From Candidatus Methanomethylophilaceae archaeon (lineage in GTDB: Archaea; Thermoplasmatota; Thermoplasmata; Methanomassiliicoccales; Methanomethylophilaceae), in the NCBI GenBank assembly GCA_944320495.1, contig CALUHR010000013.1:448001-512000 (forward strand): DNA of 64,000 nt, read 5' to 3'. Both the position numbers and the translations under genes were made by a program. Positions 19,532 through 44,182 of the stretch are shown here, one piece after another. Under the pieces are notes generated by a model. The model saw nothing but the letters and a program-made list of their open reading frames with translations. It did not search any database and was not told the DNA's origin. Numbering within the stretch: position 1 is the stretch's first letter; each line of letters opens with the position of its first letter.

Positions 19532-20401
19532 ATGGATGGGAACACAAGGATGGAGGATCTGGAGCAGCATCTGCTGTTCCACAGGGCGCTCGCCGACGAC
19601 GACGAGTCGCTCAGGAGGATAGGGGGATACATGGACATCCTCTCCCGGGCGGAGTCCGGGGAGAGGCTCCAGGACCCCGTGGACGAGTCGATCAGGGCCG
19701 TCTTCAGCCTGGTGCTGGAGAAGGGCATCGACCCCTGGGAGGTGGACCTCTCGGAGTTCGCCCGCATGTACGAGGCCAAGGTCTCCAGGGACAGCTTCGA
19801 CATGATCGTCGCGGGCAAGCTGCTGCTCATGGCATGGAGAATCCTGCGCATGCAGTCGGAGTCCACTAGGGCCAGGAGCGAGCCGCCGGTCGAGCCCGTC
19901 ATCGAGGAGGCCGACGACAGCTTCTTCTTCGAGGACGAGCCGCTGTACGTGCCCGAGGTCAGCTTCAGGGAGGCCTTCAGGAGGCAGACCGAGAGGCCCG
20001 TCACCGTGTACGAGCTCATCGACGCCTTCGAGGACGCCCGCAGGGACATCGATATCCAGCGCGAGCGCGAGCGCGTCCGCCGCGAGCTCAAGGCCAAGGA
20101 GCCCAAGAGGTTCGACAACAAGGCCCACGACGAGGACGACGAGCGCGACGTCGAGGCCGTGTGGAAGCGGATCGAGAGGCTCGGCACCGGGCAGATCGCC
20201 ATCCGCGACCTCTACACAGCCGACCTCCAGGAGAACCTCACCACCTTCGTGGCGGTGCTCCACCTGGTCAGGGACGGCAGGCTGGCCGTCTGGCAGGACG
20301 AGCTGCCCTACGGCACCATCTATCTGGAGATCAAGACGGACTGGTCCTCAGGGACCCTCGAGGACTCGCCCGGCCAGCTGGTGACCGAGGCGGTGAACCG
20401 A
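19532..20401 (+). CDS. scpA: segregation/condensation protein A (kleisin)
   Basis: IDPWEVDL and RPVTVYELIDAF motifs, C-terminal FVAVLHL winged helix, directly after smc. Ends at CGA 20399-20401, 1 nt before scpB (standard stop at 20761). Confidence 0.9.
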
Positions 20402-20402
20402 T

Positions 20403-20927
20403 TTGGACGCCAAGGGAGCGGCCGAGGCCGCGCTGTTCGCCAGTCCGGAGAACCTGAGGATCTCCGACATAGCGGAGCGCACGGGGTTCCCGGAGGAGGA
20501 GATCCGCACCGCGCTGATGGACCTCCGCAGGGAGTACGAGGAGCGCGATTCAGCCATAGTCATAGCCAAGATAGGCTCCGAGTACGGCATGATGCTCCGC
20601 GCGGAGTACTCCGACTTCCCCGGCATGTTCGGGAAGGCGGAGATGTCCGGAGGGCTGATGAGGACCCTCAGCACCATCGCATACAACCAGCCCGTGCTGC
20701 AGTCGGAGCTCGTGAGGACCAGGGGTCCCCGCGGGTACGACGACGTCCACAGGCTGATTGAGATGGGATTCGTCTCGGGGAAGAAGAGCGGGCAGACGCT
20801 GGAGCTGACGACGACCAAGAAGTTCTCGGACTACTTTGGCATCGGCTCCACCCGCAAGGCGGACATCCGCAAGTGGATCGAGTCCCAGGCGTCCAACTCC
20901 CGCATGCCCGAAGACGGCCAGGAATGA
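20403..20927 (+). CDS. scpB: segregation/condensation protein B
   Basis: AAEAALFAS, TLSTIAYNQPV and TTKKFSDYFG motifs; TTG start. Confidence 0.93.
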   Translation: MDAKGAAEAALFASPENLRISDIAERTGFPEEEIRTALMDLRREYEERDSAIVIAKIGSEYGMMLRAEYSDFPGMFGKAEMSGGLMRTLSTIAYNQPVLQSELVRTRGPRGYDDVHRLIEMGFVSGKKSGQTLELTTTKKFSDYFGIGSTRKADIRKWIESQASNSRMPEDGQE

Positions 20928-21092: not shown

Positions 21093-21176
21093 ATGAGCAT
21101 CATGACGGTGCCCTCTGCCGACGTAGATGCCGCTCCGAGTGCCAGTGCAGTCCATCGGGACCTGGAGGACTGCCGA
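21093..21176 (+). CDS. possible 27-aa leader peptide ending in CGA that overlaps the permease ATG
   Basis: TATA-like CTTATAT near 21070, GGGTGAG before the ATG at 21093, and a CGATG junction at 21174-21178. It could instead be an untranslated leader. Confidence 0.3.
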
Positions 21177-22822
21177 TGTCCCTCCTGAAGAAGATAGATG
21201 AGATATCCGGCAGCTACAAGGCGAGGAACGCCTGGCTGACGTTCGCCATAGTTCTCTTCATAGCGATCATCGTCATCCCCGCGATATTCGTAGTCACCAA
21301 GCTCTTCACGGAGTGGGACCTGGTCAGCGGGGTCCTGAACGATCCCGCGAGCATGGAGGTAATCGAGGGCGCGGTGTGGAACTCGTTCAGCATAGCGGCC
21401 ATAGTCACGGTCATCGACATCCTCGTGGGACTGCCGATGGCGTGGATCATGGTCCGCAGGGATTTCAAGGGCAAGAAATGGCTCGACACCCTGCTGGACA
21501 TGCCCCTGGCGTTCCCGACCGCCGTCCTCGGAATCTCGGTGGTCATGTTCTGGGGCGCCCCCGAGGGCATCACGATCCCGGGGCTGGGGCTGGACCTGTC
21601 ACCGTACGTGATGCTCCTGTTCCTCCACATCATATTCACCTATCCGTACATGGTCCGCTCCCTGTCCGGAATCCTGGAGCAGATCGACGTCAACTACGAG
21701 ACCGCGGCCATGACCCTCGGCGCTTCGAAATGGACCGCCGTGAGGACCATCACGATCCCCCTGTTCCGCGCCGGTCTCGCCACCGGGTTCATCCTGTGCT
21801 TCGCCAGGTCCCTGTCGGAGACCGGGGGCACATACATCGCCCTGACCATGATGGGCGTCGAGAGCACCTTCTTCACCGGGCCGTCGTTCATCAGCTGGCT
21901 GAAGTCCGACCCGACCATGGTCGACTCCGGGGACTACATGGGCGCCATGATCCTGATCAGCGTAGTCATGATCGTCCTGGCCCTGATCCTCCTCGTGGTG
22001 GTGAAGTGGATCATCGCGAGGTTCAGGATCCCCTGGAAGAAGGTCTGGCCGGAGATCGGCAGGAGCGTCAGCCGCGGCCCCCTCCCGAAGGTCAAGGACG
22101 TCATCACAGTCGTGTTCCTGATTATCGTGGTCCTGCTGCCCTCTTTCTACATATTCGCGTATCTGACGGAGCCGATCCCCGACATAGACTACGGGACGCT
22201 CCTGTCGTCCACCGGGGTGTCGTTCCTGGTTGCGGGCGTGGCCGTCCTCGTCGACCTCATCCTGGGCATCCCGCTGTCGCTCTACATCGCCAGGCACAAG
22301 GGCGGGAAGCTCGCCGGCATCCTGGACGGGCTGGTCAACGTCCCCCTGATCATCCCGACCACCGCGCTTGGATTCTCCCTGGCGCTGTTCTGGGCCAGCT
22401 TCGGTGCTGGGGACTCGATGGCCATCGTGCTGGTCATCCTCGGTCACATCTCGTTCACGTATCCGCTCGTGGTGAGGAACCTGGTGGGCGCGATAGAGGA
22501 GGTCAACCCGGAGTGCGAGGAGATCGCCATGACCCTCGGCGCCAAGCCCTTCCGCGCGTTCAGGACAATCCTCATGCCGATCATCAAGTCGTCCGTCGTC
22601 GCCGGATGCATCCTGGCGTTCACCAGGTCCCTGGGCGAGACGGGCGCGACCATCGCCATCAGCGACAGCGTCAGCACGGTCCCGATCTACATCACCAACC
22701 TGGTCCAGGACCACATGTACACCGAGGCGGCGATGTGCTCCATCGTCCTGATCGCCATCTGCTTCGTGCTGATGATGGTCGTCAGGATGCTAACACACAG
22801 GAGGCAGGGTAGGGATGCCTGA
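21176..22822 (+). CDS. ABC transporter permease with two fused TM domains (ModB/WtpB/CysT-like)
   Basis: Two EAA-type loops (YETAAMTLGA and CEEIAMTLGA), each followed by ARSLSETG or TRSLGETG. Confidence 0.9.
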   Translation: MSLLKKIDEISGSYKARNAWLTFAIVLFIAIIVIPAIFVVTKLFTEWDLVSGVLNDPASMEVIEGAVWNSFSIAAIVTVIDILVGLPMAWIMVRRDFKGKKWLDTLLDMPLAFPTAVLGISVVMFWGAPEGITIPGLGLDLSPYVMLLFLHIIFTYPYMVRSLSGILEQIDVNYETAAMTLGASKWTAVRTITIPLFRAGLATGFILCFARSLSETGGTYIALTMMGVESTFFTGPSFISWLKSDPTMVDSGDYMGAMILISVVMIVLALILLVVVKWIIARFRIPWKKVWPEIGRSVSRGPLPKVKDVITVVFLIIVVLLPSFYIFAYLTEPIPDIDYGTLLSSTGVSFLVAGVAVLVDLILGIPLSLYIARHKGGKLAGILDGLVNVPLIIPTTALGFSLALFWASFGAGDSMAIVLVILGHISFTYPLVVRNLVGAIEEVNPECEEIAMTLGAKPFRAFRTILMPIIKSSVVAGCILAFTRSLGETGATIAISDSVSTVPIYITNLVQDHMYTEAAMCSIVLIAICFVLMMVVRMLTHRRQGRDA

Positions 22823-23915
22823 GATTGTTCTGGACGACCTCTGCAAGGACTTCGACGGCCATGTCGCAGCCGACCATCTGAGCCTGACCATAGGCGATGG
22901 GGAGTACGTCTGCATCCTGGGTCCCACCGGGGCCGGGAAGACCACCGCCATGAGGATGATCTGCGGTCTCACGATCCCCGATTCCGGGAGGGTGCTCCTG
23001 GACGGGAGGGACGTGACCATGGATTCGCCGGACTCCAGGAACGCCACCATGCTCACGCAGACCTACGCGCTATTCCCGCACATGACGGTCTACAACAACG
23101 TCATGTTCGCCCCCAAGACCAAGGGGTGGCCGGAGGGCGAGTCGAAGCAGATCGTCAGGAGCATGCTGCACCTGGTGCATCTCGACCAGAAGGCGGACTG
23201 GGTCCCCGGGGAGCTATCCGGCGGCCAGCAGCAGCGCATTGCCCTCGCCCGCGCCCTCGCATCCGGGTCGAAGATCCTCCTGCTGGACGAGCCGCTCAGG
23301 GCGCTGGACGCGCGCCTGAGGATCGACCTGAGGAAGGAGCTCAGGTCCCTGGCCAAGGAGATGGGGCTCACGTGCATCCACGTCACCCACGACCAGGATG
23401 AGGCCCTGGAGATGGCCGACCGCATCGCCGTCATCCGCAAGGGCAGGATCATACAGTTCGGGACCCCCCGCGAGGTCTTCGAGAACCCGGCCACGCCGTT
23501 CGTGGCCAACTTCGTGGGCAGGTCCAACATATTCTCCGGCAAGGTCGTCGGAGCCGGCGACGGCAGGGTGTCCGTGGACGTCGGCGGGATCGTCCTGACC
23601 GGGAGGGGGGACGGGATGGAGCCCGGCTCCGAGGCGGTTCTCGCCGTCAAGGTCGGGTTCACCAGGCTCTCGGCGCCCGGGGAGGGGCCGGAAGGTTCCG
23701 TGAAGGGCATAGTGGAGCGCATCGTGTACGAGGGGGCCACCGTGACCGTGGAGGTCTCCGCCGGGTCGTTGGGCCTGGTTTCGTCCAAGCTGCCGAGCGC
23801 GAGGTTCGAGGAGTTCAGCGTCGGAGCCGCGGTCGATGTATCGTGGCCGGCCGACAAGGCGACGGTGTTCCAGATGCCCGCCGGCGGGCTCGAAGAGGAG
23901 ATGAGGTTGGACCGA
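22815..23915 (+). CDS. ABC transporter ATP-binding protein (PotA/CysA-like with TOBE domain)
   Basis: GPTGAGKT, LSGGQQQR and LLLDEP motifs. Ends ...EEEMRLD then CGA 23913-23915, overlapping the next ATG (standard stop at 24011). Confidence 0.92.
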
Positions 23916-25000
23916 TGGCAAGGATCAAGTTGGACAGGATCTCCATGCGCTTCGGCGATTTCTACGCCGTCAGGGACATATCGCTCGAGATCGGGAACGG
24001 CGAGTACGTGACCATCCTCGGACCGTCCGGTTGCGGCAAGACCACGCTCATCAAGGTCATATCGGGGATCTGGACCCCGACCGAGGGGAAGGTCTACGTG
24101 GATGGCAGGGACGTCACGAACATCCCCATGGAGGACAGGGACGTCGGATACGTGTTCCAGAACATCGCACTGTTCCCGCACATGAACCTGAGGGACAACG
24201 TCGAGTACAGTCCCAGGGTGAAGGACCAGGGCGACGAGAGGATGGCCGAGCTGTCAGAGGAGTACCTCAAGCTCGTGGGCATGTTCCAGAGGGCCGGGAT
24301 GCTCCCGTCGGAGCTCTCCGGAGGGGAGCAGCAGAAGGTCGCCATCGCCCGCGCGCTGGCATCCGGTTCCAAGATGCTGATGCTCGACGAGCCGCTGTCC
24401 GCTCTGGACGCTCGCGTCCGCGTCGAGCTGAGGTACGAGCTCCGCAGGATCGTCAAGAAGCTCGGGATAACCGTTCTCCACGTCACGCACGACCAGGAGG
24501 AGGCCATGTCGGTCTCCGACCGCATCGTGCTCATGCGCTACGGCGCCATCGCCGAGTCCGGTGCGCCCCTGGACATATACCGCCGTCCGAAGTCCGTCTT
24601 CGCGGCCAACTTCATCGGGGAGACCAACCTCTTCGAGTGCACCGTCTCCGATTGGTCCAAGAGCGGGAAGACCAGGGTCACCATGCGCGGTGGCCGCGAG
24701 ATCCGCGTGTCCCGCACGGACTTCCGTCCCGGGGACGCCGTCGTAGTGTCCGTGAGGCCGGAGCATGTGCGTCCGGACGAGGACGGGATCGAGGCGAAGG
24801 TGCGCTCCGTGTCCTTCAGAGGGGTCTACTGGAGGGTGAGGACCATGGCCGAGAGCAGTGACTATATTGAGTACGACGTACCTGCAGACGGTGAGGTCCC
24901 CGAGGTGGGAGACACCGTGCGCCTGTCCTTCGACAGGAACGCATCCGTCGTGTTCCCCAGACCCGAGGGCGGAATAGAGGAGGAGATCAGACTTGAGTAA
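23915..25000 (+). CDS. ABC transporter ATP-binding protein (paralog)
   Basis: GPSGCGKT, LSGGEQQK and MLDEP motifs. Ends ...EEEIRLE then TAA. Confidence 0.93.
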   Translation: MARIKLDRISMRFGDFYAVRDISLEIGNGEYVTILGPSGCGKTTLIKVISGIWTPTEGKVYVDGRDVTNIPMEDRDVGYVFQNIALFPHMNLRDNVEYSPRVKDQGDERMAELSEEYLKLVGMFQRAGMLPSELSGGEQQKVAIARALASGSKMLMLDEPLSALDARVRVELRYELRRIVKKLGITVLHVTHDQEEAMSVSDRIVLMRYGAIAESGAPLDIYRRPKSVFAANFIGETNLFECTVSDWSKSGKTRVTMRGGREIRVSRTDFRPGDAVVVSVRPEHVRPDEDGIEAKVRSVSFRGVYWRVRTMAESSDYIEYDVPADGEVPEVGDTVRLSFDRNASVVFPRPEGGIEEEIRLE

Positions 25001-25673
25001 GGATCAATCCGGCCTGCTTGGATGGTTCGGGAAGAGGAAGGAGGGCGTCGTCGGAGACGGTCTCCGCGCCATGTCCCTCTCCGTCCGCGACTGCGTAACC
25101 GAACTTGGCCTGGCACTGCGCGCCATGGGCGAGGAGGACTCCTCCGCCGCCAAGAAGGCCATCGAGAGGCTGTTCAAGTGCGAGCACGAGGCCGACGCCC
25201 AGGAGGACGAGCTCTGCAACCAGATAAGCATAGGCGAGCTCGGCGCCCAGGAGCGCGAGGACCTCATGCACTTCATCCGCAAGACGGACAAGATCGCCAA
25301 CTGGAGCAAGGAGGCCGCCATCGGCGTCTCCCTGGTCGACGAGCTGGGCATGAAGGTGCCCAAGGGCATCTGGGACATGCTCGCGCAGTCCGTGTCCGAC
25401 CTGGAGTCGGAGGTCCGCGGCCTCGCCAATTCGATAGAGATGATGGGGTCCGAGGGATCCGACATCATGGAGTGCGTCCGCGGCATCAGGGAGATGGAGA
25501 GGACGCTCGACCGCGCCTACTACGAGATGACGAAGACCATCTTCCGCGCGGACATCGATCCCAAGGCGGTCATCATGCTGCTGAGGATAGTGGACGCCAT
25601 CGAGATGGCGGCGGACACCTGCAAGGCCTGCTCCGACACCGTCGCGATCCTCCACTACGCCAAGAGGGTGTGA
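24993..25673 (+). CDS. DUF47/PhoU-like phosphate transport regulator
   Basis: EHEADAQEDEL, REDLMHFIRKTDKIAN and IEMAADTC motifs. Confidence 0.8.
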   Translation: MSKDQSGLLGWFGKRKEGVVGDGLRAMSLSVRDCVTELGLALRAMGEEDSSAAKKAIERLFKCEHEADAQEDELCNQISIGELGAQEREDLMHFIRKTDKIANWSKEAAIGVSLVDELGMKVPKGIWDMLAQSVSDLESEVRGLANSIEMMGSEGSDIMECVRGIREMERTLDRAYYEMTKTIFRADIDPKAVIMLLRIVDAIEMAADTCKACSDTVAILHYAKRV

Positions 25674-27058
25674 GCCTGACCCTCTTCGGGCCCGGCGGCG
25701 TCAGGGCCGTCGTCAACAGCGACCTGACGCCGGAGGTGGCGCTGGATCTGGGACGCGCCGTGGGGAGGACCCTCGGCGGCACGGTGGCCCTCGCCACCGA
25801 CGCAAGGGACTCCGCCCGCATGGTCAGGTCGGCCATGGTCGCCGGCATGATGGCCGTCGGGGCGGACGTCGTGGATCTCGGCATGATCCCCACGCCGGCG
25901 CTGCAGTTCTACGTCCGCGAGCATCCGGGGATATCCGGAGGCGTCATGGTGACGGCCTCCCACAACCCTCCCGAGTATAACGGTATGAAGCTGATACTCG
26001 GTGACGGCACGGAGGCCACCACCGAGGACGAGGCCGAGCTGGGCACATCCTACGCAATGGAGGCCCGCGATGCCGATTGGGACAGGGTCGGGCGCATCCG
26101 CACCGAGGAGGGCGCGATATCCGATTACATAGACGCGATAGTCTCCAAGGTCGATGCTGAGGCCATCCGTTCCGCCGGTCTGACCGTTTGCGTCGATTGC
26201 GCGTGCGGTGCGGCCAGCTTCTCGACGCCGCTGCTCCTCAAGAGGCTCGGCGTCTCCACGGTGACGATAGGCTGCGACCCCGTGGCGTCCCCTCACAGGG
26301 ACAGCGACCCGACGGAGGAGAACCTCACGACCCTCATGGGTCTGGTAAGGTCCTCCGGCGCCGACATGGGCATCGCCCACGACGGTGACGGGGGCCGCGC
26401 AGTGTTCATCGACGGGACTGGGAGGTTCCTCAACGGATCAGTCTCCGGGGCCATAGTCGCAAGGAGCATCCTGGCCGAGGGCAAGGGCAAGGTCGTGACC
26501 CCGATAAGCTCGTCAAAGGTCCTGGAGGACGTGGTGACCGAGGCAGGAGGGCTGGTGAAGTACACCGAGGTCCTCTCGCACCAGGTCGTCCGTAAGATGC
26601 AGGAGAACCTCGCGGTGTTCGGGGTCGAGGAGCACGGGGGCATGGTGTTCCCCCAGATGCAGATGTGCAGGGACGGCGCCATGGCGCTCGCCAAGATGCT
26701 GGAGATCATCGCCAAGAACGGTCCGCTGGCCGACATGGTGTCGCAGCTCCCGTCGTACAGCACGAGGAAGGTCAAGGTCCCCTGTCCGGAGGGGCTCAAG
26801 GTGCCCGTGATGGACAGGCTTCACAGGGATGTGGAGGCCGCGGGGTCCCGCATGGACGTGACCGACGGCATCAAGATAATCCTGAACGACGGATGGGCGC
26901 TGATCCGCGCCTCTACGACGGAGCCCTGCATCAGGGTGTACTCGGAATCGATGGACGCCGGTACCGCCGACAGGATACTGTCGGAGTACTCCAGGATGGT
27001 CAAGGACCTGGTTCGCGGGCTCACAGATGCTTCGCGTGCACAGCCAGAGCCTCGTTGA
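25670..27058 (+). CDS. phosphoglucomutase/phosphomannomutase/phosphoglucosamine mutase family protein
   Basis: LFGPGGVR, VTASHNPPEYNG phosphoserine loop, AHDGDGGR and IRASTTEP motifs; GTG start overlaps the previous TGA. Confidence 0.93.
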   Translation: MSLTLFGPGGVRAVVNSDLTPEVALDLGRAVGRTLGGTVALATDARDSARMVRSAMVAGMMAVGADVVDLGMIPTPALQFYVREHPGISGGVMVTASHNPPEYNGMKLILGDGTEATTEDEAELGTSYAMEARDADWDRVGRIRTEEGAISDYIDAIVSKVDAEAIRSAGLTVCVDCACGAASFSTPLLLKRLGVSTVTIGCDPVASPHRDSDPTEENLTTLMGLVRSSGADMGIAHDGDGGRAVFIDGTGRFLNGSVSGAIVARSILAEGKGKVVTPISSSKVLEDVVTEAGGLVKYTEVLSHQVVRKMQENLAVFGVEEHGGMVFPQMQMCRDGAMALAKMLEIIAKNGPLADMVSQLPSYSTRKVKVPCPEGLKVPVMDRLHRDVEAAGSRMDVTDGIKIILNDGWALIRASTTEPCIRVYSESMDAGTADRILSEYSRMVKDLVRGLTDASRAQPEPR

Positions 27059-44171: not shown

Positions 44172-44182
44172 GCCTCCGTGCG

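What the first reader, a model, noticed from the sequence alone, without database searches (positions are those of the whole stretch)
23907..25000. Paralog control: tandem ABC ATPases end at the same residue, one with CGA and one with TAA
ATPase 1 ends ...EEEMRLD-CGA and ATPase 2 ends ...EEEIRLE-TAA. The CGA also overlaps the ATG of ATPase 2 as CGATG, mirroring the classic TGATG coupling. This is an internal control that needs no database.
Basis: seen in the sequence. Interest (0 to 1): 0.85.

Follow-up and report, generated by a model that had tools for sequence, protein, structure and literature searches.

The report
Arginine codon CGA ends transporter gene
Two neighbouring copies of a transporter ATPase gene end at the same residue, one with the normal stop TAA and one with the arginine codon CGA, and relatives have TGA at that exact spot; this is a clean local proof that this gut methanogen uses CGA to end genes, a code change I did not find described for any free-living organism.

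Summary
ATPase 1 (22815-23912) and ATPase 2 (23915-25000) are 40% identical and align end to end. ATPase 1 is followed by CGA (23913-23915), ATPase 2 by TAA, and the CGA shares its A with the ATG of ATPase 2 (CGATG).

Orthologues make the case stronger than the paralogue control alone. Of 48 complete orthologues in the family, 40 have TGA or TAA at this position and 8 have CGA. Several close relatives read TGATGG where this genome reads CGATGG. The 32-codon read-through tail is not conserved: substitutions fall on third positions of the ATPase 2 frame.

Genome-wide, coding potential collapses immediately after in-frame CGA. About a fifth of genes end there. CGATG junctions are as common as TGATG ones.

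CGA is not an absolute stop. A tRNA-Arg(UCG) with a mismatched 31-39 pair is retained, and the release-factor gene keeps one in-frame CGA at a conserved arginine.

Public gene calls for this locus are wrong: ATPase 1 carries 32 extra residues and ATPase 2 usually lacks 31.

This scan had already reported CGA-as-stop several times on other parts of this genome. Here it is tested independently at one locus. In single-genome samples, sister genera have almost no CGA and do not use it as a stop.

The parts
21176..22822 (+). Fused two-domain ABC permease gene, ending in TGA. It overlaps the ATG of ATPase 1 by 8 nt.
   Evidence: Pfam BPD_transp_1 with two stretches. NCBIfam sulfate/molybdate/tungstate-type permease models, all below the equivalog cut-offs. 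Junction read.
22815..23912 (+). ATPase 1 coding sequence, 366 codons, ending E-E-E-M-R-L-D
   Evidence: Contains no in-frame CGA. No solved homologue aligns beyond residue 354.
23913..23915 (+). CGA codon acting as the terminator of ATPase 1
   Evidence: Aligned with TGA, TAA or TAG in 40 of 48 orthologues and with CGA in 8. Coding potential is +0.85 before it and -1.68 after it in this frame.
23913..23917 (+). CGATG stop/start overlap junction (1 nt shared)
   Evidence: Relatives G013, G024, G028, G035 and G039 have TGATG at this position.
23903..23907 (+). GAGGT, a Shine-Dalgarno-like motif 7 nt upstream of the ATPase 2 ATG, inside the M-R-L codons of ATPase 1
   Evidence: Seen in the sequence. 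That it acts as a ribosome-binding site is inferred. I did not find a 16S rRNA 3' end in this assembly with the patterns I tried.
23916..24011 (+). Standard-code read-through tail: 31 codons after the CGA plus TGA. Judged non-coding in this frame.
   Evidence: Off-frame of ATPase 2. Against G009, 8 of 9 substitutions fall on ATPase 2 third positions, with 1 of 33 residue changes in the ATPase 2 frame against 8 of 32 in the tail frame. The tail frame holds extra stops in G013 and G024 and a second CGA in G009.
23915..25000 (+). ATPase 2 gene, 361 codons plus TAA (24998-25000)
   Evidence: The N-terminus M-A-R-I-K-L-D-R-I-S is conserved in orthologues.
24008..24010 (+). GTG used as a false start of ATPase 2 in most public gene calls (330-aa form). 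It overlaps the tail's TGA as GTGA.
   Evidence: Cluster look-up and alignment.
24993..25673 (+). DUF47/PhoU-like gene downstream. The start codon is uncertain.
   Evidence: Pfam PhoU_div, E = 2.4e-16.
25670..27058 (+). Archaeal phosphoglucosamine mutase GlmM. Its GTG start overlaps the upstream TGA as GTGA.
   Evidence: NCBIfam TIGR03990, 472.6 bits against a cut-off of 439. ORF list with CGA read as stop.

Best explanation
The locus is a tightly coupled archaeal ABC-importer operon. It encodes a fused permease, two paralogous PotA/CysA/ModC-type ATPases with C-terminal TOBE domains, a DUF47 protein and GlmM.

Translation of ATPase 1 ends at the CGA codon 23913-23915. In this genus (Methanoprimaticola-type, family Methanomethylophilaceae) CGA has changed from an arginine codon into a termination signal. 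Because the CGA shares its last base with the ATG of ATPase 2, a terminating ribosome can restart on ATPase 2, as at the TGATG junction that close relatives have at the same place.

Inferred mechanism: the single archaeal release factor aRF1 accepts C as well as U at the first codon position when GA follows. It out-competes a retained but weakened tRNA-Arg(UCG). That tRNA is kept because the aRF1 gene itself carries one in-frame CGA at a conserved arginine, which would give feedback control of release-factor level.

Shown here: the gene end at CGA, its equivalence to TGA in orthologues, the genome-wide pattern, the tRNA anomaly and the aRF1 CGA. Inferred: recognition by aRF1, re-initiation at the junction and autoregulation.
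For: Local evidence:
- The paralogues align end to end and stop at D366/E361.
- The codon after the last aligned residue is TGA or TAG in 16 of 19 orthologous loci and CGA in 3.
- In the wider sample it is TGA in 37, TAA in 3 and CGA in 8 of 48, and no orthologue continues.
- G013 and G024 read TGATGG where G000 reads CGATGG.
- Neither ATPase gene holds an in-frame CGA in 9 genus genomes. The same genes in 10 genomes of other families hold 39, including one at 62% GC.
- The tail is unconstrained.

Genome-wide evidence:
- In 246 of 1028 ORFs, mean coding score is +0.9 to +1.0 up to the codon before the first 3'-half CGA and -1.0 immediately after. CGT shows no such step.
- CGA is the only one of 61 sense codons with this drop.
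- 256 of 1133 high-confidence genes (23%) end in CGA.
- Off-frame CGA trinucleotides are abundant and not avoided (6,990 as NCG|A and 28,299 as xxC|GAx in 396,000 codons), so the signal is read in frame.
- CGATG behaves like TGATG, not like AGATG or GGATG.

Independent assemblies: the 398-aa open form recurs in 22 cluster members from NCBI, ENA and Logan.

Precedent: yeast eRF1/eRF3, whose eRF1 is the homologue of aRF1, detectably decodes CGA as stop (PMC7379694).

aRF1: exactly one in-frame CGA, at Arg78, in 22 of 23 genus genomes. That position is never CGA in 7 genomes of other families. Genus-fixed substitutions flank the NIKS motif.
Against: A cognate tRNA-Arg(UCG) gene is present and scores as a good tRNA (55.7 bits). 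It is conserved in 12 genus genomes.

The aRF1 gene can only give a full protein if CGA is sometimes read as arginine. Termination at CGA therefore cannot be absolute, and some ATPase 1 with the tail may be made.

There are no protein, ribosome-profiling or RNA data.

Gene sets were made with a crude coding-potential caller of my own.

The tree does not resolve whether CGA arose once or twice at this locus.
Confidence: 0.85

Rival explanations
1. CGA is an effectively unassigned (hungry) codon. Ribosomes stall there because the tRNA is poor or scarce, and are released by a rescue pathway or by slow non-specific aRF1 action. There would be no evolved recognition of CGA by aRF1. The gene end is the same; only the mechanism differs.
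For: All 12 genus copies of tRNA-Arg(UCG) have a mismatched 31-39 pair (A-A, C-A or U-C), so the anticodon stem has only 4 base pairs. Sampled sister genera have almost no CGA without using it as a stop, which looks like an unassigned state. In yeast, CGA termination was proposed as a rescue of stalled ribosomes (PMC7379694).
Against: About 23% of genes depend on CGA as their only nearby end signal, with a median of 28 codons to the next standard stop. Routine stalling at a fifth of all genes would be costly. CGA stands at tight stop/start overlaps as often as TGA. Genus-fixed substitutions flank the NIKS codon-reading motif of aRF1.
Confidence: 0.1
2. The standard code holds. A TGA-to-CGA stop-loss mutation gave ATPase 1 a tolerated 32-residue arginine-led tail that overlaps ATPase 2 by 97 nt.
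For: A single T-to-C transition suffices. A tRNA-Arg(UCG) exists. Public annotation pipelines call the 398-aa form.
Against: The tail is not conserved even between genomes whose ATPase 2 N-termini are identical. The same 'stop-loss to CGA' would have had to happen in about 250 to 400 genes of this genome and never to another codon. In-frame CGA is absent from the bodies of both genes across the genus.
Confidence: 0.02
3. C-to-U RNA editing converts CGA to UGA in the mRNA, so the ribosome sees a standard stop.
For: Only the general existence of C-to-U editing that creates stop codons in other systems (from my own knowledge). No RNA data could be obtained.
Against: Only in-frame CGA is avoided inside genes. 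6,990 NCG|A and 28,299 xxC|GAx occurrences are tolerated without depletion, and a frame-blind editor would recode the former. The in-frame CGA in aRF1 would be edited too and would destroy the gene.
Confidence: 0.02
4. The CGA is an assembly or sequencing artefact, or a programmed frameshift at the rare CGA fuses ATPase 1 to ATPase 2.
For: The genome is a 14-contig metagenome-type assembly. Fused double-ATPase ABC proteins exist elsewhere (from my own knowledge).
Against: The identical CGATGG is found in independent assemblies: G018, seven more species representatives, and 22 cluster members from three sources. In orthologues the junction spacing and frame relation vary (TGATG, TGAcATG, TAGATG, TGAgATG, TGAATG), so no fusion frame is conserved. 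There is no slippery heptamer at G-GAC-CGA.
Confidence: 0.01

Closest known systems
Sense-to-stop reassignments in organelles (UCA and UCG in Sphaeropleales mitochondria, UUR in Pycnococcus; PMC6821328; also AGA/AGG in vertebrate mitochondria, from my own knowledge)
   Same: A sense codon disappears from coding sequences and then serves as terminator. The release factor carries lineage-specific substitutions. A codon-disappearance path is proposed. Here, sampled sister genera show the near-empty state.
   Different: Those are tiny organelle genomes with a handful of genes, and the cognate tRNA is lost. Here it is a 1.77-Mb free-living archaeal genome with hundreds of CGA-terminated genes. The cognate tRNA is kept in altered form, and the release-factor gene itself holds the codon in frame.
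Misdecoding of CGA by yeast eRF1/eRF3 (PMC7379694)
   Same: The same codon and a homologous release factor. CGA resembles UGA, and eRF1 competes with the arginine tRNA. A single terminal CGA is detectably read as stop.
   Different: In yeast this is a minor side reaction on a rare arginine codon. Here it appears to be the normal meaning of the codon.
Possible CGA stop in two hydrothermal-vent archaeal assemblies (bioRxiv 10.64898/2026.04.02.715157)
   Same: CGA is absent from recognisable domains in archaeal genomes, and the author raises the possibility that it is a stop.
   Different: A different lineage, coupled there to CGG-to-Trp. tRNA(UCG) was not found in those assemblies. The method used cannot infer stops, and no gene-end evidence was given. 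Methanomethylophilaceae are not mentioned.
Overlapping stop/start translational coupling (TGATG and ATGA junctions) in prokaryotic operons (from my own knowledge)
   Same: A one-base overlap of terminator and initiator, a Shine-Dalgarno-like motif just upstream, and orthologues with the canonical TGATG at the same place.
   Different: The terminator is CGA.
PotA/CysA/ModC/MalK-type ABC importer ATPases with a TOBE domain (closest solved: E. coli PotA 8zx1 and 8y5f; Methanosarcina ModC 3d31)
   Same: ABC_tran plus TOBE_2 architecture with Walker A, LSGGQ, Walker B and H-loop motifs.
   Different: Two diverged paralogues (40% identity) sit in tandem beside one fused permease, which suggests a heterodimer. 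The substrate is unknown: all NCBIfam equivalog scores are below cut-off and no binding-protein gene is adjacent.

Membership tests
Termination codon (operational definition) | Stands at the position where orthologues and paralogues have a standard stop | tested here: met
   The paralogue has TAA. Orthologues have TGA, TAA or TAG in 40 of 48 and CGA in 8.
Termination codon (operational definition) | Absent from the interior of conserved coding sequence | tested here: met
   No CGA in either ATPase gene in 9 genus genomes, against 39 in 10 genomes of other families. At most 0.86 per 1000 in the middle thirds of ORFs genome-wide. Exception: one conserved CGA in aRF1.
Termination codon (operational definition) | Coding signal ends immediately after it | tested here: met
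   A sharp step at codon 0 in 246 ORFs. It is unique among the 61 sense codons. At this locus the score goes from +0.85 to -1.68.
Termination codon (operational definition) | No cognate tRNA | tested here: not met
   tRNA-Arg(UCG) is present at G000:C13:413317-413390 (55.7 bits to RF00005) and conserved in 12 genus genomes. All copies have a 31-39 mismatch.
Termination codon (operational definition) | Recognised by the release factor, with the polypeptide released there | not testable with these tools
   Only indirect evidence: genus-fixed substitutions beside the NIKS motif and the yeast precedent.
Organellar sense-to-stop codes (NCBI tables 2, 22, 23) | The genome is a mitochondrion or plastid | tested here: not met
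   A 1.77-Mb assembly with 45 tRNA genes, aRF1, and SMC/ScpAB, aIF5A and Nop56/58-type genes next to the locus. Relatives are titled Candidatus Methanoprimaticola or Methanomethylophilaceae.
ABC importer ATPase with TOBE domain | ABC_tran domain with Walker A, signature, Walker B and H-loop motifs, plus a C-terminal TOBE_2 domain | tested here: met
   PF00005 at E = 6e-33 and 2e-35; PF08402 at E = 6e-8 and 2.5e-11, all above the gathering scores. The motifs GP(T/S)G(A/C)GKTT, LSGG(Q/E)QQ, LLLDEP/LMLDEP and HVTHD are visible.
PotA / PhnT2 / WtpC equivalogs (substrate assignment) | Score above the NCBIfam equivalog cut-off | tested here: not met
   The best hit is PhnT2, at 324 and 338 bits against a cut-off of 457.7. 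PotA scores 302 and 312 against 482. The substrate is left open.
Stop/start overlap translational coupling | Terminator and initiator share bases, the two genes are on the same strand in one operon, and a ribosome-binding motif lies upstream | tested here: met
   CGATG at 23913-23917 and GAGGT at 23903-23907. TGATG in five relatives. Actual re-initiation is not testable here.

The most novel reading that the evidence does not exclude
CGA is a fourth, leaky stop codon in a whole genus of gut methanogens. It would be held in balance by three co-evolved parts: an aRF1 with altered surroundings of the NIKS motif, a tRNA-Arg(UCG) weakened by a 4-bp anticodon stem, and a single in-frame CGA sensor inside the aRF1 gene. 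The change would be staged across the family. In my single-genome samples, genera g16, g15 and g12 have almost purged CGA and already carry one CGA in aRF1, but do not yet use CGA to end genes. That would be a living intermediate of codon capture.
Probability: 0.45. Interest if true: 0.93.

Novelty: new variant of a known kind. Interest (0 to 1): 0.85.

Why it matters
Sense-to-stop changes of the genetic code are described for organelles. [quoted passage not shown] I found no description of a sense-to-stop change in a free-living organism in the library searched. A free-living archaeal genus that ends about a fifth of its genes at an arginine codon would be the first such case.

It would also show how a release factor can widen its codon set while the competing tRNA survives.

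There is a practical consequence. At this locus the exact sequences held in the public collection I searched give ATPase 1 a false 32-residue tail, and 10 of the 15 listed calls of ATPase 2 lack 31 N-terminal residues. Hundreds of proteins per genome in this human- and animal-gut lineage are probably mis-annotated in the same way.

The locus offers a compact, internally controlled test object: one operon with a TGA, a CGA and a TAA terminator on homologous genes.

Tried and rejected
No RNA or independent read evidence could be laid, and read laying was not used.
- I looked for the 16S rRNA 3' end in the assembly to confirm the anti-Shine-Dalgarno sequence. Nothing matched the patterns I tried, so the SD reading of GAGGT rests on general knowledge.
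- The first pentamer count (one search was preceded) was confounded by GGATGA/AGATGA junctions. It was repeated with a filter excluding nearby stops.
- The first generic per-genome step test failed on the positive control because antisense ORFs entered the training set. It was replaced by a greedy non-overlapping caller.
- An all-frame search for CGA/TGA equivalence around aRF1 in other genera was too noisy to use. It gave one clear case, in G060.
- A tree of the two ATPases left G013 (TGA), G009 (CGA) and G000+G018 (CGA) as a polytomy. The number of TGA/CGA switches at this locus is undetermined beyond at least one.
- Frameshift fusion, stop-loss, RNA editing and assembly artefact were considered and rejected (see rival explanations).
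- No structure prediction or complex prediction was run. Neither would bear on where translation ends.
Full report
**1. The observation**

- ATPase 1 opens at ATG 22815. Its last codons that resemble anything are E-E-E-M-R-L-D (23892-23912).
- The next codon is CGA (23913-23915). Under table 11 the frame then runs through 32 codons (R-W-Q-G-S-S-W-T-G...) to TGA at 24009-24011, giving 398 aa.
- ATPase 2 opens at ATG 23915, so the junction reads CGATG. It ends E-E-E-I-R-L-E then TAA (24998-25000), 361 aa.

BLASTP aligns the two from residue 1 to D366/E361 (40% identity, E = 7e-91) and finds nothing for residues 367-398. Both carry ABC_tran and TOBE_2, and in both the TOBE_2 match ends 14 residues before the proposed end. 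No solved homologue aligns past residue 354 of ATPase 1.

**2. Orthologues: a stronger control than the paralogue**

The tandem pair is present in 9 of 24 sampled genomes of the genus and in other families of the order. In 19 orthologous loci the codon after the last aligned residue is TGA or TAG in 16. It is CGA in three, all from the genus: G000, G018 and G009.

G013 and G024 read TGATGG where G000 reads CGATGG. G028, G035 and G039 also have TGATG.

A scan of species-representative genomes gave 48 complete orthologues, overlapping the first set. The counts are CGA 8, TGA 37 and TAA 3. Every CGA case is at least 73% identical to the query, and no orthologue continues past this point. Record titles place these relatives in Candidatus Methanoprimaticola and Methanomethylophilaceae.

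**3. The tail is not a protein**

Across the 97-nt overlap, 8 of 9 substitutions between G000 and G009 fall on third positions of the ATPase 2 frame. That changes 1 of 33 ATPase 2 residues but 8 of 32 tail residues.
- G000 and G018 have identical ATPase 2 N-termini but differ at three tail residues.
- G009 has a second in-frame CGA two codons on.
- In G013 and G024 the tail frame contains further stops.

**4. CGA use at this locus**

Neither ATPase gene contains an in-frame CGA in any of 9 genus genomes. The same two genes in 10 genomes of other families contain 39, including a genome of equal GC content (G035, 62%).

**5. Genome-wide context, computed independently here**

The assembly is 1.77 Mb at 61.6% GC.
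- In ORFs with the true-frame GC3 pattern, CGA is extremely depleted in the middle and piles up at the ends.
- After the first CGA in the 3' half, mean coding score falls from +0.87 to -0.60. For CGT, CGG, CTA, AGA and ATA it stays positive.
- Position by position, the score is +0.9 to +1.0 up to codon -1 and -1.0 from codon +1, in 246 of 1028 ORFs.
- CGA is the only one of 61 sense codons with this behaviour.
- With CGA read as a stop, 256 of 1133 high-confidence genes (23%) end in CGA, 832 in TGA, 34 in TAA and 11 in TAG. In this window the crude caller gives about 25 of 85.
- The local ORF map also tidies itself: SMC, ScpA, ScpB, permease, ATPase 1, ATPase 2, DUF47 and GlmM abut without long overlaps.

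**6. The coupling claim**

I required a clean frame switch exactly at the pentamer and no other stop nearby. Under that filter the genome has 20 CGATG and 20 TGATG junctions, against 3 AGATG and 6 GGATG. The frame continues through 546 GGATG and 163 AGATG, but through only 3 CGATG. TGA ends about three times more genes than CGA, so CGA is relatively enriched at this kind of junction.

The window holds three further CGATG gene junctions, on the minus strand at 29732-29728, 51485-51481 and 1040-1036. Each has a G-rich motif a few bases upstream. At the locus studied, GAGGT lies 7 nt before the ATG. That it acts as a ribosome-binding site is inference.

**7. Mechanism**

*Frame dependence.* Off-frame CGA trinucleotides are abundant and not avoided inside genes. 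The signal is therefore read in triplets by the ribosome. This argues against frame-blind RNA editing or cleavage.

*The tRNA.* A tRNA-Arg(UCG) gene is present and scores well (55.7 bits). In all 12 genus copies the innermost anticodon-stem pair, 31-39, is a mismatch (A-A, C-A or U-C).

*The release factor.* The genome has one aRF1 gene. It contains one in-frame CGA, at a conserved arginine, residue 78 from the Met start.
- The same single CGA is at the same position in 22 of 23 genus genomes.
- In 7 genomes of other families that arginine is CGC, CGG, CGT or AGA, and CGAs lie elsewhere.
- Genus aRF1s read Q-A-S-N-I-K-S-K-T-T-M-K, where other families read Q-S-S-N-I-K-S-(Q/K)-x-T-(R/Q)-K.

*Precedent.* In yeast, eRF1/eRF3 detectably decodes CGA as stop in competition with the arginine tRNA (PMC7379694).

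I therefore think aRF1 terminates at CGA. The weakened tRNA would survive to read the aRF1 sensor codon, and termination would be efficient but not absolute. These last steps are inferred.

**8. Reach of the change (a lead, only sampled)**

ATPase orthologues from other genera of the same family hold only 3 in-frame CGAs in about 42 genes. aRF1 genes of 20 genomes from 14 other genera mostly hold exactly one CGA, at arginines 11, 25, 50 or 78. Genus g22 has four, and g11, g17 and g19 have none.

I ran a per-genome step test on 200-kb samples:

| Sample | Mid-gene CGA per 1000 codons | 3'-half CGA cases | Cases with a coding-score step |
|---|---|---|---|
| G000 (own genus) | 1.81 | 36 | 27 |
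| G060 (g16), two samples | 0.14 and 0.79 | 2 and 4 | 0 |
| G055 (g15) | 0.27 | 4 | 0 |
| G044 (g12) | 0.20 | 3 | 0 |
| G087 (g18) | 0.78 | 23 | 2 |
| G140 (g23) | 1.15 | 20 | 1 |
| G130 (g22) | 4.78 | 84 | 7 |
| G030 (another family) | 1.02 | 21 | 1 |

- Only G000 shows the CGA step.
- G060, G055 and G044 have CGA almost absent and no steps.
- G087 and G140 use CGA sparingly as a sense codon.
- G130 and G030 use it as an ordinary sense codon.

This fits codon disappearance followed by capture as a stop in one genus. It rests on one genome per genus and a crude gene caller.

**9. Consequences for annotation**

The public collection I searched holds the 398-aa form of ATPase 1 (NCBI, ENA, Logan) and not the 366-aa form. 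Ten of the 15 listed calls of ATPase 2 are 330 aa, starting at GTG 24008. They lack the 31 residues before the Walker A motif.

**10. Literature and earlier notes**

I found no description of this for Methanomethylophilaceae or any other free-living organism. A 2026 preprint raises the possibility of CGA as stop for two hydrothermal-vent archaeal assemblies, without gene-end evidence. Sense-to-stop changes are documented in organelles (PMC6821328).

This scan had already reported CGA-as-stop, the odd tRNA and the aRF1 CGA on other parts of this genome. I re-derived each point I use.

**Verdict**

The locus is one of the cleanest single demonstrations of the code change. What remains open is the biochemical mechanism and the leak rate.

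Noticed in passing
window 19532-20927: ScpA ends at CGA 20399-20401 and ScpB starts at 20403. Under the standard code the ScpA frame runs on to 20761 (409 aa) and overlaps ScpB by about 360 nt. This is a second local example of a CGA gene end.
   Followed up: partly
window 29732-29728 (-), 51485-51481 (-), 1040-1036 (-): Three more CGATG junctions where the coding frame switches exactly at the pentamer, each with a G-rich motif a few bases upstream. A fourth candidate at 44181 has a TGA four codons earlier and does not count.
   Followed up: partly
window 24008-24010: Most public gene calls start ATPase 2 at this GTG (330 aa), which removes the 31 residues before the Walker A motif. This is a side effect of extending ATPase 1 through the CGA.
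   Followed up: yes
genome-wide (G000): The base after a terminal CGA is T in 55% of cases, against 29% after TGA. CGATCG alone accounts for 16% of CGA ends. The in-frame CGA in aRF1 is followed by C. This may be a context effect on termination efficiency.
   Followed up: partly
L154-L173 (aRF1 loci of 14 other genera of the family): aRF1 genes mostly carry exactly one in-frame CGA, at recurring arginines (11, 25, 50 or 78). The residue four places after NIKS is M or L in these genera, but R in g22, g19 and R or Q in other families.
   Followed up: partly
L174-L253 (200-400 kb samples of G060, G055, G087, G044, G140, G130, G030): The sampled genomes of genera g16, g15 and g12 have CGA almost absent from genes (0.14-0.79 per 1000) but do not end genes with it. 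In G060, CGA is several-fold enriched in the last 10 codons, and one ORF ends at CGA where 17 other genomes have TGA (L166, + strand, offset 6971).
   Followed up: partly
L076-L079, L084, L086, L088, L091, L120: Public records titled as bacteria (Bifidobacteriaceae, Lachnospiraceae, Bacteroides ovatus, Ruminococcus, Prevotella hominis, Dialister hominis and others, all 'cleanbin' isolates) carry this archaeal operon at 72-76% identity. The bins look mislabelled.
   Followed up: no
window 25022-27058: Under the standard code the GlmM frame is open from 25022 (678 aa). With CGA read as stop, it starts at GTG 25670, overlapping the TGA of the DUF47 gene as GTGA. That gives 462 aa and matches the archaeal GlmM model above its cut-off.
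   Followed up: yes
genome-wide (G000): TAG ends only about 1% of high-confidence genes (11 of 1133). ARAGORN found no tRNA with a CUA anticodon. Whether TAG is pyrrolysine here was not examined.
   Followed up: no
window 21176-25000: No substrate-binding protein gene lies next to the permease and ATPase genes (the upstream genes are SMC/ScpA/ScpB). The two diverged ATPases beside one fused permease suggest a heterodimeric ATPase pair. The substrate is unknown.
   Followed up: no
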